NCBI RefSeq assembly: GCF_001545095.1
Contig: NZ_CP013213.1
Coordinates: forward strand, 2,310,001-2,342,000
Direction of reading: 5' to 3'
Length of the DNA: 32,000 nucleotides
Source of the DNA: Erysipelothrix larvae
GTDB taxonomy: Bacteria > Bacillota_I > Bacilli_A > Erysipelotrichales > Erysipelotrichaceae
A model generated the notes under the pieces. That model was not told where the DNA came from and made no database searches. It saw only the letters and a program-made list of their open reading frames with translations. Of this stretch, positions 22,999 through 28,373 are shown piece after piece (position 1 is the first letter of the stretch; the number at the start of each line of letters is the position of its first letter). A program made the translations under genes and the position numbers.

Positions 22999-24258
22999 TT
23001 ATTCTCCAGCCCAAAGTGATTCAATTGTGGATTGGTATGATGCTAATGTTGATTCTAAGTCAATGTTTGGTTGACTTAAGATATCTTCCATCATTACTGA
23101 GATTTCATTGTATACTGCATTTGCATTCGCAGGAATTGTGAACATATTTGAAGTGATTTCTTTTGCGATTGGTGCAATCATGCTATCCAAGCTTGTATAT
23201 GCATCACTTTCAATAACACTTGTTCTTACAGGAAGATATCCTGTGTTTTCAGCCCAGTATAATGTTGATTCAGCGGATGTTAGGAAATCCATGTAAAGGA
23301 ATGCCGCTGTTTTTTGTTCAGGTGTTGCATTTGCGAACATGAAGTTATCAGTACCTTGTTGGATTCCTTTTTCTACAGGAACTGCAACAGCACCTGGAGT
23401 AAATTTACCTTCAGCACCACTCTTAACATATGTTTCACCAGCAGTTGAACCGATGTTCATAGCGATTAATTCATTACCAAATGGTCCTGATAGATATTTA
23501 TCACTACCTGCAATTCTTAGGTATCCACCTTTGATTCCATCAAGATACATGTTAATTACTTCTACTGAGTCAGCTGATGTTACATCGAGTGTATCGTCAA
23601 GTTTATGACCACGGTTAATCATTTGAGTTACATAATAGTTATTGAGTGAGTCAAATCCACCACCAACAACTGCCCCATTTGATTTTTCCGCAACAGTTTT
23701 TGCTGCAGCAAGGAAATCGTCGAATGTAGTTGGTGCCTCGATTCCATATTCTTCAAAAATATCTGAGTTATAGAACAATGCTTCTGATGATTTATTGAAT
23801 GGTAAACCATATTGAACATCATTAATTTTAGCACCGTCCATAAAACCTTGAATAATGTCACTTACATCTTCAATACCAATTACGCTGTTTGTAATATACG
23901 GTGTAAGGTCTTGTAGAAGTCCGTCTTGCGCTGCATCATAGAACCAGTTTGTATACCCTTGAGTAATTGTTGGTAAGTTCGCTGGGCTTGCCATTGTTGC
24001 TGTTAACTTTTGTGACAAGTCCGCGTATGATGATTGATTTTGCAATACAATTGTAATGTTTTCGTTTGCTGCATTAAAATCATTAGTTAATTTAGTTAAT
24101 GCTTCTTCTTGAGCACCATTCATTGCATGCCAGTAAATTACTTCAACTGGTTCAGTAATTTCAGTAACAATACTTTCGTCGTCTTTGCTTCCTGTTCCAT
24201 TTGAACATCCAACAATTAACATAAGTGCAAGCACGCTTGCTAATAATTTCTTAAACAT
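22999..24258 (-). CDS. ABC transporter substrate-binding lipoprotein (family 1 / CUT1, UgpB/MalE-like)
   Basis: The start is set at ATG 24258 (MFKKLLASVLALMLIVGCSNG, with lipobox LIVGC), preceded by AAAGGAGAA. The ORF-track extension to 24366 overlaps the upstream gene. Confidence 0.85.
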   Translation of the reverse strand: MFKKLLASVLALMLIVGCSNGTGSKDDESIVTEITEPVEVIYWHAMNGAQEEALTKLTNDFNAANENITIVLQNQSSYADLSQKLTATMASPANLPTITQGYTNWFYDAAQDGLLQDLTPYITNSVIGIEDVSDIIQGFMDGAKINDVQYGLPFNKSSEALFYNSDIFEEYGIEAPTTFDDFLAAAKTVAEKSNGAVVGGGFDSLNNYYVTQMINRGHKLDDTLDVTSADSVEVINMYLDGIKGGYLRIAGSDKYLSGPFGNELIAMNIGSTAGETYVKSGAEGKFTPGAVAVPVEKGIQQGTDNFMFANATPEQKTAAFLYMDFLTSAESTLYWAENTGYLPVRTSVIESDAYTSLDSMIAPIAKEITSNMFTIPANANAVYNEISVMMEDILSQPNIDLESTLASYQSTIESLWAGE

Positions 24259-24275
24259 CGTGTGTATTTTCTCCT

Positions 24276-25532
24276 TTAGATAGTCTCGCCACGTTGTGGG
24301 AGATGGACTGATCCGTATGGATTCAGTAATAAATCTGGGCGCAATGTATGAATTGGAACCAAGCATTTTGGTTGGATCATTTCAATAATTGCGTCTAAGT
24401 CATTTGGAAAAGCATGCCCAGTACATCCTACATGATTAAACTCGATTCCCTTGTCCAGGAATTGTTGTTTAAATACAAGGTATGCAGGGTCAAATAATCC
24501 AAGTGGATCTGCATCACAGTGAATGTAGATTCCCCCTGATTGTAGTTGATCATCAAATCCTTGAATTTGCCACAGATATTTCTCAGGGTGTTCATCTCTT
24601 TGTGAAATATCTACTTCAAGTTCAGGATTCAATCCCCAGTCTTTGTTTGGATCCTTCTCGTATAAACAATCCATATCCAATAAAGACTTCAGTATGTAAG
24701 CCATTTTCTCCTTAAGAACCACGCTCCTTCTTACCTTGGCTACAATATGTGCAAAACGCTTAACGTTTGCAAGATACCCGTTGAATGTAATTTGTTGATT
24801 TGGATGGTTCTCCACTTCATCCACAATCCAATCCAACAGTGCTTCTTCAGACGCAAACTTATTCGTCTTAGACTCGGGTCTCCCTTCAAAACTGATCGAG
24901 ACGCCCTCCATAATAAGCATGTCACAATTCTTTGCCTTTTCACAAAAAGCAACTGTATCTGCGCTATCAAAGCCATGCAACCTCAGGTCACCCGTATAGG
25001 CAATCACACAGTCGGGTGTACGAATCATCATACCGCAAGCGCCATATGCATCATGATCCACACGATGCAATGTCACTTCAATATCCCCAACTTTGATCGT
25101 GGAATCAGGTTTCACACCTAAAATCTCACGGGTTACATAATCTTTGTTTATTGCAGGCAGTACGAATGTACCATCCTGATTAAGGAGCTCAATTAAGCGT
25201 TTTGTATCTTCTAGTGCATATAATGGCACTTGAGGATCCAGGTAATTAATCATGCGTGTATGGTCGAGATGGCAATGGCTTAAGAATACCGCAGTATTCG
25301 CACCATTTACTGTTCTTCCAAAAACTTCATCATACACATCAAGTTCAGGGATTAATCGATGTTCGATTAATGTATCTAAGAGTTCATCTTTCAATTTTAA
25401 CTCTGGTCTGAACTCAGTTCCAAAGTCAAAGAAAATTCGGGAACCTTCATAATTTATTTCAATAACCGTTCCACCAATAGTAAGTACACCGGCATGAAAT
25501 GTAATCCGTGTTTTTCTATCCTTTAATTCCAT
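24276..25532 (-). CDS. Cytoplasmic RNase J-like beta-CASP metallo-beta-lactamase-fold hydrolase (no C-terminal dimerisation domain)
   Basis: 418 aa from ATG 25532. By eye it is collinear with B. subtilis RNase J1:
- ITFHAGVLTIGGTVIE with VFALGGLGEIGKNTYA
- FLSHCHLDHTRM with FITHGHEDHIGG
- HRVDHDAYGACGMMIRTPDCVIAYTGDLRL with [29 protein letters not shown]
- GCTGHAFPNDLDAIIEMIQPKCLVPIHT with [29 protein letters not shown]

No signal peptide. Confidence 0.8.
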   Translation of the reverse strand: MELKDRKTRITFHAGVLTIGGTVIEINYEGSRIFFDFGTEFRPELKLKDELLDTLIEHRLIPELDVYDEVFGRTVNGANTAVFLSHCHLDHTRMINYLDPQVPLYALEDTKRLIELLNQDGTFVLPAINKDYVTREILGVKPDSTIKVGDIEVTLHRVDHDAYGACGMMIRTPDCVIAYTGDLRLHGFDSADTVAFCEKAKNCDMLIMEGVSISFEGRPESKTNKFASEEALLDWIVDEVENHPNQQITFNGYLANVKRFAHIVAKVRRSVVLKEKMAYILKSLLDMDCLYEKDPNKDWGLNPELEVDISQRDEHPEKYLWQIQGFDDQLQSGGIYIHCDADPLGLFDPAYLVFKQQFLDKGIEFNHVGCTGHAFPNDLDAIIEMIQPKCLVPIHTLRPDLLLNPYGSVHLPQRGETI

Positions 25533-27230: not shown

Positions 27231-28300
27231 TAGTAAACGCGTGTCCCATCTTCCTTAAAGATAAAGAGACGTTCTAAATCCATTGAGAATCCATAGGATT
27301 CATTTTCTTGGATACTCTCCTCAATTGATACAAGACTCTTCATATGTTGATTACCAAGCTTGAAACTCACGATTGCTTCTTTCCCCATCAATTCAATTAA
27401 GTCAACATCACAGACAAATGAACTGTTTGGATCATATGAAATATTCTCAGGTCGAATCCCAATAATATACGTTCCTTCTTCAAGGGCTTCTTTGAATCTT
27501 GATTGATCGAGCTTATTTGTATCAATTGACAATCCTTCAAAATGAAGGTTGTTGTCTTTATATTCAACTGGAATCATGTTCATTCCTGGATTTCCTATAA
27601 AGCTTGCTACAAATAAGTTCTTTGGTTCTAAATATAAGTTTTGTGCTTCATCGTATTGTTGGATAACCCCATCATTCATCAATACAATCTTATCGCTGAT
27701 TGACATTGCTTCTTCTTGATCATGTGTTACAAAAATTGTTGTGATTCCAATTTTCTTAACAAGTCGACGAATTTCTTCTCGAATTCGAAGACGCAAACGC
27801 GCATCCAGATTACTGAGCGGTTCATCGAGCAAGAGTATTTTAGGTTGTTGAACGAGCGCACGTGTAATCGCGACACGTTGTTGCTGTCCCCCAGACATTG
27901 AATCTGGCTTCTTATCCGCTAATTCAGTGATGCTTGTCAATTCCATATATTCATATGCAATTTTCTGAGCGTCTTCTTTACTCATTTTATTCTTCCCAAC
28001 ACGCAGTGGGAACATGACGTTCTCCAATACTGTCATGTGTGGATACAATGCATAGTTTTGAAACACGAGACTCATATTACGATCTTTAGGGTGTTTTGTT
28101 ACGAGTGATTCCCCATCATTCTTGATATCCCCTTCAGTTGGATCAAGCAATCCGGCAATGAGGTTCAATATTGTAGTTTTCCCACACCCACTTGGTCCTA
28201 ATAGACAAACCAAGTCTCCTTCTTCGATTTGCAAATCTATCTTCTTTAGTGCCTCAAATCCATTTGGATAAACTTTTCGCAGGCTTGAAATTTCAATCAT
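27230..28300 (-). CDS. ABC transporter ATP-binding protein (MalK/UgpC-type with C-terminal regulatory/TOBE-like domain)
   Basis: Walker A GPSGCGKTT, signature MSGGQQQRVAI, Walker B LLLDEPLSNLD, H-loop THD. Confidence 0.9.
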   Translation of the reverse strand: MIEISSLRKVYPNGFEALKKIDLQIEEGDLVCLLGPSGCGKTTILNLIAGLLDPTEGDIKNDGESLVTKHPKDRNMSLVFQNYALYPHMTVLENVMFPLRVGKNKMSKEDAQKIAYEYMELTSITELADKKPDSMSGGQQQRVAITRALVQQPKILLLDEPLSNLDARLRLRIREEIRRLVKKIGITTIFVTHDQEEAMSISDKIVLMNDGVIQQYDEAQNLYLEPKNLFVASFIGNPGMNMIPVEYKDNNLHFEGLSIDTNKLDQSRFKEALEEGTYIIGIRPENISYDPNSSFVCDVDLIELMGKEAIVSFKLGNQHMKSLVSIEESIQENESYGFSMDLERLFIFKEDGTRVY

Positions 28301-28344
28301 GGCTTTCCTCTCATCATGTATATCTCTTCTTGCATAATAATAAT

Positions 28345-28373
28345 ATCATATAAATATAAATTTAATATATCAA
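28345..28373 (-). promoter_or_regulatory. Sigma-A-type promoter of the ABC importer operon
   Basis: On the minus strand, TTGATA (-35; complement of 28368-28373), a 17-nt spacer, then TATGAT (-10; complement of 28345-28350), about 45 nt upstream of the ATPase ATG. Confidence 0.45.

What the first reader, a model, noticed from the sequence alone, without database searches (positions are those of the whole stretch)
22999..28373. CUT1-type ABC importer operon with the RNase J-like hydrolase inserted between the permeases and the binding lipoprotein
Seen: one promoter (28345-28373) and one strong terminator (22913-22957) enclose ATPase, permease, permease, beta-CASP hydrolase and lipoprotein SBP. 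The ATPase/permease junction overlaps (TAATG). The hydrolase start overlaps the second permease by 17 nt. The SBP starts 17 nt after the hydrolase stop.

Established: the E. coli ugpBAECQ operon pairs a homologous importer with UgpQ, a cytoplasmic GDPD-family glycerophosphodiesterase that cleaves the imported diester. Mycoplasma ugp-like loci are linked to nucleases.

Inference, two possibilities:
(a) a non-orthologous replacement of UgpQ by an MBL/beta-CASP phosphodiesterase;
(b) more speculatively, an uptake-and-degradation system for oligonucleotides or other phosphodiester nutrients, in an organism that may depend on salvage (see the orphan purC).

I am not aware of a characterised importer with an embedded RNase J-like enzyme.
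Basis: partly seen in the sequence, partly recalled or inferred. Interest (0 to 1): 0.7.

Follow-up and report, generated by a model that had tools for sequence, protein, structure and literature searches.

The report
Importer operon with built-in RNase-like hydrolase
A widely conserved but uncharacterised Gram-positive operon joins an ABC importer, whose binding protein most resembles a dinucleotide-binding protein, to a cytoplasmic RNase J-like hydrolase, so it most likely imports and digests small RNA or DNA fragments, a nutrient route not yet described in bacteria.

Summary
On the minus strand of this Erysipelothrix larvae window, a UgpC/MalK-type ATPase, two permeases, a 418-aa beta-CASP metallo-hydrolase and a lipoprotein SBP form one tightly coupled unit that ends in a strong terminator.

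The hydrolase is not a sporadic insertion:
- The same five-gene order is found in 79 of 80 species-level genomes (Erysipelothrix, Enterococcus, Granulicatella, Carnobacterium, Clostridium and others).
- A second subfamily, about 30% identical, keeps the linkage with a different gene order.
- A cytoplasmic CpdB/5'-nucleotidase-family gene travels with the module in 50 of 57 loci. It is not in this window but is present in E. larvae.

Evidence on the substrate:
- The SBP's closest solved relative, by a wide margin, is the Thermus U3G (UpG dinucleotide)-binding protein. Its mutated ligand residues are conserved here. E. coli UgpB's glycerol-binding Trp clamp and Glu are missing.
- The hydrolase is an orthologue of the orphan structure 2AZ4 (EF2904). 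All beta-CASP catalytic motifs are intact, and its only other structural neighbours are RNases.
- PurR boxes are enriched upstream in Enterococcaceae.

Best reading (about 0.55): uptake and cytoplasmic breakdown of di-/oligonucleotides for nucleotide and phosphate salvage. A UgpQ replacement is disfavoured. Nothing has been shown biochemically.

The parts
28345..28373 (-). Sigma-70-like promoter candidate: TTGATA, 17-nt spacer, TATGAT. It lies about 45 nt upstream of the ATPase ATG.
   Evidence: One search gives 10 of 12 matches. The number of such sites in the region does not exceed shuffled sequence, so this is only plausible. Sequence read.
27230..28300 (-). ABC ATPase (356 aa) of the MalK/UgpC type, with a C-terminal OB/TOBE regulatory domain.
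   Evidence: Pfam ABC_tran, OB_MalK and TOBE_2. Best NCBIfam hit is UgpC at 346.7 bits, below the 432 cut-off. 57-80% identical in the 80 related loci.
26343..27230 (-). Permease 1 (295 aa, UgpA/MalF-like). Its ATG overlaps the ATPase stop as TAATG.
   Evidence: BPD_transp_1. UgpA 88.5 bits against a cut-off of 335. Junction read.
25516..26358 (-). Permease 2 (UgpE/MalG-like; 280 aa from the first ATG). The likely true start is the ATG at 26334 (272 aa), matching the median length of homologues.
   Evidence: BPD_transp_1. UgpE 128.6 bits against a cut-off of 297. Median length of the orthologue cluster is 272 aa.
24276..25532 (-). Cytoplasmic beta-CASP metallo-beta-lactamase-fold hydrolase (418 aa). 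It is an orthologue of E. faecalis EF2904 (PDB 2AZ4). Its start overlaps permease 2 by 17 nt.
   Evidence: 2AZ4 at E = 3e-133. Foldseek TM 0.93 to 2AZ4, then RNase J at TM 0.66-0.73. Invariant H86xH88xD90H91, H160, D182, E209, H373 and H395. No signal peptide, by reading. Junction read.
22999..24258 (-). Lipoprotein substrate-binding protein (419 aa), CUT1/cluster D. Its closest solved relative is the Thermus U3G dinucleotide-binding protein.
   Evidence: SBP_bac_8 and SBP_bac_1. 7C0F at E = 1e-32 and 117 bits; the next-best hit is 56 bits. Ligand-site residues Y78, Y102, N104, S157, Y255, S271 and Y277. Lipobox IVGC, by reading.
22913..22957 (-). Intrinsic terminator that closes the operon.
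   Evidence: Read. -18 kcal/mol, z = -3.6, followed by U9.

Best explanation
The operon encodes an uptake-and-breakdown pathway for small nucleic-acid fragments. These are most likely RNA-derived dinucleotides or very short oligonucleotides, possibly with 3'-phosphate or 2',3'-cyclic ends.

Proposed steps:
1. The surface lipoprotein SBP captures the phosphodiester-containing fragment.
2. The UgpA/E-like permeases and the MalK/UgpC-like ATPase import it.
3. The translationally coupled cytoplasmic beta-CASP hydrolase (the EF2904/2AZ4 family) cleaves the internucleotide phosphodiester bond.
4. In most lineages a co-localised cytoplasmic CpdB/5'-nucleotidase-family metallophosphoesterase removes terminal phosphates. 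In E. larvae this gene lies elsewhere in the genome.
5. The products, nucleotides or nucleosides plus phosphate, feed salvage pathways.

Shown here: the gene content, the coupling signals, conservation of the module, intact catalytic motifs, and SBP site conservation relative to the dinucleotide binder.

Inferred: the ligand, the enzyme's substrate, the direction of transport, and the physiological role.
For: 1. Conserved linkage.
- ATPase-perm-perm-MBL-SBP is contiguous in 71 of 80 loci. It is present wherever the contig allows in 79 of 80, across Erysipelotrichales, Enterococcaceae, Carnobacteriaceae, Streptococcaceae and Clostridia.
- A second subfamily (MBL 29-31% identical, SBP 29-37%, locus GC 0.35-0.61) keeps the linkage in the order ATPase-perm-perm-SBP-MBL(-nucleotidase).

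2. SBP.
- The best PDB hit is 7C0F at 117 bits. The next-best hit is 56 bits and UgpB structures score about 50.
- 7C0F is the Thermus thermophilus uridylyl-3'-5'-phosphoguanosine-binding protein (PMC12718374 text and SI Table S5).
- The residues its authors mutated are Y58, F81, N83, S129, Y226, T242 and Y248. They correspond to Y, Y, N, S, Y, S and Y here.
- Five of those seven columns are at least 97% invariant in 76 MBL-linked SBPs, although overall identity to 7C0F is only 27%.

3. Hydrolase.
- All MBL and beta-CASP motifs are invariant, including in the distant subfamily.
- Apart from 2AZ4, every one of the top 50 structural neighbours is an RNase: RNase J, aCPSF1/FttA, CPSF73 or INTS11.

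4. Linked nucleotidase.
- A cytoplasmic Metallophos + 5_nucleotid_C protein has its best NCBIfam matches to 2',3'-cyclic-nucleotide phosphodiesterase/3'-nucleotidase families.
- It lies within the locus in 50 of 57 loci that have enough downstream sequence, and directly after the SBP in 27.
- It still follows the MBL, 16 nt away, in the one genome that lacks the transporter (L068).
- E. larvae has an orthologue elsewhere in its genome (P0417).

5. Regulation.
- PurBox (AWWWCCGAACWWT, at most 1 mismatch) occurs in 9 of 64 operon upstream regions and in 3 of 279 other intergenic regions. Shuffles give a mean of 1.2 and a maximum of 4.
- Eight of the nine are Enterococcaceae.

6. Weak context.
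- A deoxynucleoside kinase lies 3 genes downstream of the SBP in four Erysipelothrix loci.
- purC lies downstream of the operon in the window.
Against: - No biochemical or genetic data exist for any member in the literature I could search.
- The Thermus and Meiothermus U3GBP loci contain only permease-permease-SBP, with no MBL and no nucleotidase. The only characterised SBP relative therefore does not share the module.
- From my recollection of that paper, which I could not read here, U3G was an adventitious ligand carried over from the expression host.
- SBP identity to 7C0F is only 27%. According to PMC12718374, UgpB, GPC-binding and U3G-binding proteins share a phosphate-coordinating set of two Tyr and two Ser. 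In my alignment at least three of the conserved residues (Y58, S129 and the T242 position) are also Tyr/Ser in E. coli UgpB, so they argue for 'a phosphoester ligand' more firmly than for 'a dinucleotide'.
- Characterised beta-CASP enzymes act on long RNA or DNA. Activity on dinucleotides has not been established.
- The window itself has no PurBox near the operon and no nucleotidase gene.
- Pho-box-like repeats were not above chance.
Confidence: 0.55

Rival explanations
1. Ugp-like glycerophosphodiester or G3P importer, in which the beta-CASP hydrolase non-orthologously replaces UgpQ.
For: - The best NCBIfam match of every transporter component is the Ugp protein.
- In the alignment with E. 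coli UgpB, the positions of Y58, S129 and T242 are also Tyr/Ser. PMC12718374 reports a phosphate-binding Tyr/Ser set shared with G3P- and GPC-binding proteins.
- E. coli ugpBAECQ provides the precedent of an importer paired with a cytoplasmic phosphodiesterase.
Against: - All four scores are far below the equivalog cut-offs: 346.7/432, 88.5/335, 128.6/297 and 50.6/411.
- The UgpB Trp clamp (SGWQGW) falls in a segment that is deleted here.
- UgpB Glu66 is Thr here and Pro in at least 90% of the family.
- UgpB structures score about 50 bits against 117 for 7C0F.
- The linked enzymes belong to nuclease and nucleotidase families.
- PurBox is enriched upstream, whereas Pho boxes are not.
Confidence: 0.13
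2. Importer and catabolic module for another phosphodiester-containing compound. Candidates are cyclic dinucleotides (c-di-AMP, cGAMP), NAD- or nucleotide-sugar-derived diesters, or teichoic-acid fragments.
For: - The conserved phosphate-binding site and the aromatic residues in the SBP do not specify the flanking groups.
- From my own knowledge, CpdB-family enzymes hydrolyse cyclic dinucleotides and UDP-sugars as well as 2',3'-cNMP. The linked gene's best matches are to these families.
Against: - The closest characterised SBP binds a linear dinucleotide.
- Beta-CASP enzymes are not known to act on any of these compounds.
- No specific evidence points to any of them.
Confidence: 0.2
3. An ordinary sugar importer with an unrelated RNA-metabolism RNase (an RNase J paralogue) that merely sits in the operon.
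For: - CUT1 systems mostly carry sugars.
- Some NCBIfam carbohydrate SBP models give weak hits.
- The fold resembles RNase J.
Against: - Linkage is conserved in 79 of 80 genomes and survives a change in gene order.
- The hydrolase start overlaps the permease gene by 17 nt.
- The phosphate-binding Tyr/Ser set is conserved in the SBP.
- The RNase J C-terminal domain is absent, and scores are far below the RNase J cut-offs.
Confidence: 0.05

Closest known systems
E. coli ugpBAECQ (G3P/glycerophosphodiester ABC importer plus the cytoplasmic phosphodiesterase UgpQ)
   Same: - A homologous CUT1 ATPase, two permeases and an SBP.
- The same logic: an importer co-encoded with a cytoplasmic phosphodiesterase for the imported diester.
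   Different: - The hydrolase is beta-CASP/MBL, not GDPD.
- The gene order is ATPase first and SBP last.
- The SBP lacks the UgpB Trp clamp and Glu66.
- All equivalog cut-offs are missed.
- An additional nucleotidase-family gene is linked.
Thermus thermophilus U3G-binding protein (PDB 7C0F series; Chandravanshi, Samanta and Kanaujia, FEBS J 2021, cited in PMC12718374)
   Same: - It is the closest solved SBP: 117 bits, E = 1e-32.
- Of the seven mutated ligand-site residues, five are identical and two are conservatively replaced.
- It also lacks the UgpB Trp-clamp segment.
   Different: - Overall identity is only 27%.
- Its locus has no beta-CASP hydrolase and no nucleotidase.
- It belongs to the diderm genus Thermus; a lipoprotein signal was not examined there.
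EF2904 of Enterococcus faecalis (PDB 2AZ4), a structural-genomics protein of unknown function
   Same: It is an orthologue: about 52% identity over the full length, E = 3e-133, TM 0.93.
   Different: Nothing is known functionally. The literature mentions it only as a beta-CASP structure without RNA-binding modules (PMC3095777).
RNase J (bacterial and archaeal beta-CASP 5'-3' exo/endoribonuclease)
   Same: - The MBL + beta-CASP two-domain fold, TM 0.66-0.73.
- All metal-binding motifs and motifs A, B and C.
   Different: - 13-19% identity.
- No C-terminal dimerisation domain: 418 aa against about 555 aa.
- 40-52 bits against cut-offs of 400-820.
- It is embedded in a transporter operon.
CpdB / YfkN / UshA family (2',3'-cyclic-nucleotide phosphodiesterase, 3'- and 5'-nucleotidases)
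   Same: The gene linked to the module in most genomes has Metallophos + 5_nucleotid_C domains, and its best matches are to these families.
   Different: - It has no signal peptide or anchor (by reading of N-termini), so it is cytoplasmic.
- It scores below all curated cut-offs.
- Its closest structures are uncharacterised: 3QFK and 4Q7F, described in the PDB as 'Uncharacterized protein' and '5' nucleotidase family protein'.
- It is not encoded in this window.

Membership tests
CUT1-type binding-protein-dependent ABC importer (TC 3.A.1.1) | A MalK/UgpC-type ATPase with a C-terminal regulatory OB/TOBE domain. | tested here: met
   ABC_tran, OB_MalK and TOBE_2.
CUT1-type binding-protein-dependent ABC importer (TC 3.A.1.1) | Two BPD_transp_1 permeases plus an SBP_bac_1/SBP_bac_8 binding protein. 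| tested here: met
   The SBP carries a lipobox, by reading.
Ugp sn-glycerol-3-phosphate/glycerophosphodiester system | The components reach the NCBIfam equivalog cut-offs for UgpC, UgpA, UgpE and UgpB. | tested here: not met
   346.7/432, 88.5/335, 128.6/297 and 50.6/411 bits.
Ugp sn-glycerol-3-phosphate/glycerophosphodiester system | The glycerol-binding residues of UgpB: the Trp clamp W169/W172 and Glu66 (E. coli mature-protein numbering, from my own knowledge). | tested here: not met
   The Trp-clamp segment is deleted. The Glu position is Thr here and Pro in the family.
Ugp sn-glycerol-3-phosphate/glycerophosphodiester system | A GDPD-family phosphodiesterase (UgpQ) in the operon. | tested here: not met
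   No GDPD domain was found in any operon or flanking ORF that was scanned. A beta-CASP enzyme is present instead.
Ugp sn-glycerol-3-phosphate/glycerophosphodiester system | Pho-regulon control. | tested here: inconclusive
   Phased TTHACA repeats occur in 9 of 65 upstream regions. Shuffles give a mean of 5.4 and a maximum of 11.
Beta-CASP subfamily of MBL-fold hydrolases | MBL motifs (HxHxDH, H, D) plus beta-CASP motifs A (D/E), B (H) and C (H). | tested here: met
   H86, H88, D90, H91, H160, D182, E209, H373 and H395 are invariant. They are also invariant in the distant subfamily.
Beta-CASP subfamily of MBL-fold hydrolases | A two-domain MBL + beta-CASP fold. | tested here: met
   AlphaFold2 model with pLDDT 82. 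Foldseek hits are 2AZ4, RNase J and CPSF73. PMC3095777 lists EF2904 as a beta-CASP structure.
RNase J | Reaches the family model cut-offs (TIGR00649, RnjA). | tested here: not met
   40.2/400 and 52/820 bits.
RNase J | A C-terminal dimerisation domain, giving a total length of about 555 aa. | tested here: not met
   The protein is 418 aa and ends shortly after motif C. Foldseek TM scores normalised to the target are lower for full-length RNase J.
RNase J | Ribonuclease activity. | not testable with these tools
   This needs an enzyme assay.
U3GBP-type (dinucleotide-binding) CUT1 SBP | Closest characterised homologue and conserved ligand-contact residues. | tested here: met
   five of seven residues identical and two conservative. 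Identity is only 27%, and one mutant (7C14) could not be identified.
U3GBP-type (dinucleotide-binding) CUT1 SBP | Binds a dinucleotide. | not testable with these tools
   This needs ITC or DSF, or a co-crystal structure.

The most novel reading that the evidence does not exclude
The module imports dinucleotide signalling molecules rather than bulk RNA debris. Candidates are c-di-AMP, cGAMP or their linear pNpN products, from neighbouring bacteria or from the host. The beta-CASP enzyme would linearise or cleave them, and the CpdB-like enzyme would finish the breakdown. The module would then be a signal-scavenging or signal-quenching system in gut and mucosal Gram-positives such as Enterococcus, Granulicatella and Erysipelothrix.
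Probability: 0.1. Interest if true: 0.85.

Novelty: new variant of a known kind. Interest (0 to 1): 0.62.

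Why it matters
Bacteria are generally thought to use extracellular nucleic acids only after degrading them outside the cell to nucleosides or bases. 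A dedicated importer for dinucleotides or short oligonucleotides, with its own cytoplasmic nuclease and nucleotidase, would add a new nutrient route.

It would also:
- Give a function to a 20-year-old orphan crystal structure (2AZ4/EF2904).
- Extend the beta-CASP family from RNA processing to nutrient catabolism.
- Give physiological meaning to the single structural report of a dinucleotide-binding SBP.

The module occurs in clinically relevant Enterococcus, Granulicatella and Erysipelothrix. It can be tested directly with ordinary binding, enzyme and growth assays.

Tried and rejected
- Rfam scans of the whole window (gathering thresholds) and of 22100-23100 (E-value threshold) found no riboswitch or leader.
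- cre and CodY motif scans of the upstream regions found nothing consistent.
- Pho-box-like phased repeats were not above shuffles.
- A PurBox scan of the window found only two hits, at chance level and far from the operon.
- The Thermus and Meiothermus U3GBP loci have no MBL and no nucleotidase, so they give no support from that side.
- tblastn for the nucleotidase gene in the window found nothing.
- Literature searches returned no functional study. The terms covered EF2903-EF2907, 2AZ4, dinucleotide or oligonucleotide uptake, and beta-CASP combined with ABC transporter. The FEBS J paper on U3GBP is not held in the library, so its content is taken from a citing paper and from memory.
- The look-up of encoding contigs could not place the two E. 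larvae genes relative to each other.
- The idea that the hydrolase is the organism's housekeeping RNase J was rejected on scores, length and operon embedding.

Full report
**Source and observation**

The hydrolase is 100% identical to an annotated 'MBL fold metallo-hydrolase' of Erysipelothrix larvae, carried on a 2.495-Mb contig. The window is therefore E. larvae chromosome.

- ATPase 28300..27230: ABC_tran + OB_MalK + TOBE_2.
- Permease 1, 27230..26343.
- Permease 2, 26358..25516.
- Hydrolase 25532..24276: 418 aa, Lactamase_B_2.
- SBP 24258..22999: SBP_bac_8, with the lipobox IVGC.

The junctions were read directly from the sequence:
- TAATG at the ATPase/permease 1 junction.
- A 17-nt overlap of the hydrolase start with permease 2.
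- A 17-nt spacer containing AAGGAG before the SBP.

The terminator at 22957-22913 folds at -18 kcal/mol (z = -3.6) and is followed by U9. The promoter-like site at 28373-28345 exists, but such sites are not enriched over shuffled sequence. Rfam finds nothing in the window.

**Is the hydrolase a sporadic insertion? No.**

I scanned one genome per GTDB species with a family alignment. This found 186 relatives, of which the best 80 loci were kept.
- tblastn with the five window proteins shows ATPase-perm-perm-MBL-SBP, all on one strand, wherever the contig allows in 79 of 80 loci.
- By ORF calling the five genes are strictly contiguous in 71 of 80.
- The taxa include Erysipelothrix, Anaerorhabdus, many Enterococcus species, Tetragenococcus, Granulicatella, Carnobacterium, Streptococcaceae/Floricoccus, Clostridium and Romboutsia.
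- The permease/hydrolase start overlap recurs in the other loci (coordinates).

The representative-protein library holds 82 clusters at E <= 1e-30 and 901 at E <= 1e-10. I aligned 20 distant representatives, 28-41% identical to each other. All catalytic motifs are still invariant in them.

A metagenome scan with that alignment gave a second subfamily, in which the MBL is 29-31% identical to the window protein.
- It again sits beside a homologous CUT1 transporter (ATPase 42-45% identical, SBP 29-37%).
- The order differs: ATPase-perm-perm-SBP-MBL. This is seen in L085, L087, L089, L093, L094, L102, L103 and L133, and partially in L086, L090 and L107.
- The contigs range from 0.35 to 0.61 GC.
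- Below about 26% identity no transporter lies nearby.

Linkage that survives both rearrangement and this much divergence indicates a shared function.

**A further linked gene**

I clustered the flanking ORFs. This revealed a protein of about 505-522 aa with Metallophos + 5_nucleotid_C domains.
- Its best NCBIfam matches are to the 2',3'-cyclic-nucleotide 2'-phosphodiesterase/3'-nucleotidase(/5'-nucleotidase) families. All are below the cut-offs, and CpdB scores higher than UshA.
- Its best structures are the uncharacterised PDB entries 3QFK and 4Q7F.
- All copies start directly with the metallophosphoesterase motif and have no signal peptide, so the protein is cytoplasmic.
- It is present in 50 of 57 loci with enough downstream sequence, and directly follows the SBP in 27.
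- It also accompanies the second subfamily (L087, L089, L093).
- In the single exception without a transporter (L068, Clostridium disporicum), the hydrolase is still followed by this gene after 16 nt.
- It is not in this window. E. larvae does encode an orthologue (P0417, 60% identical to the E. tonsillarum protein) in an assembly whose longest contig has the same length, 2,495,108 bp.

**The SBP**

The best solved relative is the 7C0F series at E = 1e-32 and 117 bits. The next-best hit scores 56 bits, and UgpB/UspB structures score about 50.

7C0F is the uridylyl-3'-5'-phosphoguanosine (U3G)-binding protein of Thermus thermophilus (Chandravanshi et al., FEBS J 2021). This identification comes from PMC12718374, main text and SI Table S5.

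The deposited point mutants reveal which residues the authors considered ligand contacts. I exposed them with the native query and with a query in which all aromatic residues were changed to Ala. In chain numbering they are Y58, F81, N83, S129, Y226, T242 and Y248. One further mutant, 7C14, could not be identified.

| U3GBP residue | Window SBP |
|---|---|
| Y58 | Y78 |
| F81 | Y102 |
| N83 | N104 |
| S129 | S157 |
| Y226 | Y255 |
| T242 | S271 |
| Y248 | Y277 |

- Across 76 MBL-linked SBPs, five of these seven columns are at least 97% invariant. The other two are N/G/D and F/Y/H.
- Overall identity to 7C0F is only 27%, and only 89 of 424 family columns are that strongly conserved.
- The second-subfamily SBPs share the pattern. 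All of them score higher against U3GBP than against E. coli UgpB.

I aligned E. coli UgpB, fetched from MG1655, with this set.
- The phosphate-binding Tyr/Ser set is shared.
- The UgpB Trp-clamp segment (SGWQGW) is deleted in both U3GBP and this family.
- UgpB Glu66 (VYEVG) is Thr here and Pro in at least 90% of the family.

The SBP therefore looks like a binder of a phosphoester ligand that is not G3P, and it is most like the dinucleotide binder.

**The hydrolase**

It is an orthologue of EF2904 (PDB 2AZ4, 'protein of unknown function', E = 3e-133). The literature mentions EF2904 only as a beta-CASP structure without extra RNA-binding modules (PMC3095777).
- The invariant residues are H86xH88xD90H91, H160, D182 and beta-CASP motifs A (E209), B (H373) and C (H395).
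- An AlphaFold2 model (pLDDT 82) matches 2AZ4 at TM 0.93. After that it matches only RNases: RNase J (TM 0.66-0.73), aCPSF1/FttA, CPSF73/CPSF3 and INTS11.
- It is not RNase J. It scores 40-52 bits against cut-offs of 400-820 and lacks the C-terminal domain.

**Regulation**

- The L. lactis-type PurBox occurs, with at most one mismatch, in 9 of 64 operon upstream regions and in 3 of 279 other intergenic regions of the same loci. Shuffles give a mean of 1.2 and a maximum of 4. Eight of the nine are Enterococcaceae, and two are exact matches.
- Pho-box-like repeats, cre and CodY sites were not convincing.
- The E. larvae upstream region has none of these motifs.

**Interpretation**

The most economical reading is import of nucleic-acid-derived phosphodiesters (dinucleotides or short oligonucleotides) and their cytoplasmic hydrolysis by the beta-CASP enzyme. 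The CpdB-like enzyme would dephosphorylate the products, which then feed purine/pyrimidine and phosphate salvage.

Option (a), a UgpQ replacement in a glycerophosphodiester system, is disfavoured by the missed Ugp cut-offs, the missing glycerol-binding residues and the nature of the linked enzymes.

Caveats:
- Everything is inferred from homology and context.
- The Thermus U3GBP locus lacks the hydrolase and the nucleotidase.
- At least three of the conserved SBP residues are shared with E. coli UgpB, and PMC12718374 reports a Tyr/Ser set common to phosphoester binders.
- No beta-CASP enzyme is known to specialise in dinucleotides.
- Other phosphodiesters (cyclic dinucleotides, nucleotide-sugar or NAD derivatives, teichoic-acid fragments) are not excluded.

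**Novelty**

I found no functional description of this module in the searchable literature. Its logic, an importer paired with a cytoplasmic hydrolase, is well known. The enzyme class, the linked nucleotidase and the probable substrate are not. I therefore rate it a new variant of a known kind, of moderate-to-high interest and directly testable.

Noticed in passing
L016-L045 and others (e.g. L016:11385-11972): In about 20 Granulicatella, Carnobacterium and 'Streptococcus' loci, a DUF1697 protein (about 195 aa) lies between the SBP and the nucleotidase-family gene on the same strand. It may be a further accessory component of the module.
   Followed up: partly
L004, L009, L013, L066 (e.g. L066:12188-12856): In four Erysipelothrix loci the SBP is followed by an unknown 184-aa protein, a WYL/HTH regulator, a deoxynucleoside kinase (Pfam dNK) and, in three of them, an ORF that looks like a serine acetyltransferase (not scanned). 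The kinase fits nucleoside salvage but could be coincidental.
   Followed up: partly
window 21457-22137 (-): purC (SAICAR synthetase) stands alone, with no other pur genes among the ORFs scanned in the 32-kb window. It is separated from the operon by a 117-aa membrane ORF (22250-22603) that has no Pfam match. No PurBox lies nearby.
   Followed up: partly
window 22604-22998: A stretch of about 395 nt with no ORF of 60 aa or more lies between the operon terminator and the next gene. It contains small ORFs on both strands (e.g. 22721-22879 +, 52 aa) and a second terminator-like hairpin at 22643-22628. There is no Rfam match.
   Followed up: partly
window 965-5054 (+): An RpiR/SIS regulator, PTS mannose-family IIB, one 529-aa ORF that fuses IIC (EII-Sor) and IID (EIID-AGA), NanE (ManNAc-6-P epimerase) and IIA. 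This looks like an amino-sugar or sialic-acid-derived catabolic cluster with an unusual IIC-IID fusion.
   Followed up: no
window 12794-13513 (+): A second, unrelated small MBL-fold protein (239 aa; Lactamase_B_2/B_3) lies next to a PAP2 phosphatase (12230-12754) and a patatin-like phospholipase (10925-11827).
   Followed up: no
window 16533-18788 (+): A 751-aa UvrA-like ABC protein (ABC_tran plus UvrA DNA-binding domain), shorter than canonical UvrA. It lies downstream of a protein with two MerR HTH domains.
   Followed up: no
L106:5599-8341: Two tandem copies of a distant beta-CASP relative (about 25% identical to the window protein) lie side by side with no transporter nearby. This may be a different functional subfamily.
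   Followed up: no
L081/L082:5497-7945 and L083:5443-7900: The permeases of the Thermus and Meiothermus U3GBP systems are unusually long (377-421 aa, against about 280-295 aa here). No ATPase gene lies in those loci.
   Followed up: no
L058:5228-6303: In one Carnobacterium MAG the ATPase gene of the module appears interrupted. tblastn covers only its first part, and an extra ORF follows. This is either a pseudogene or an assembly error.
   Followed up: no
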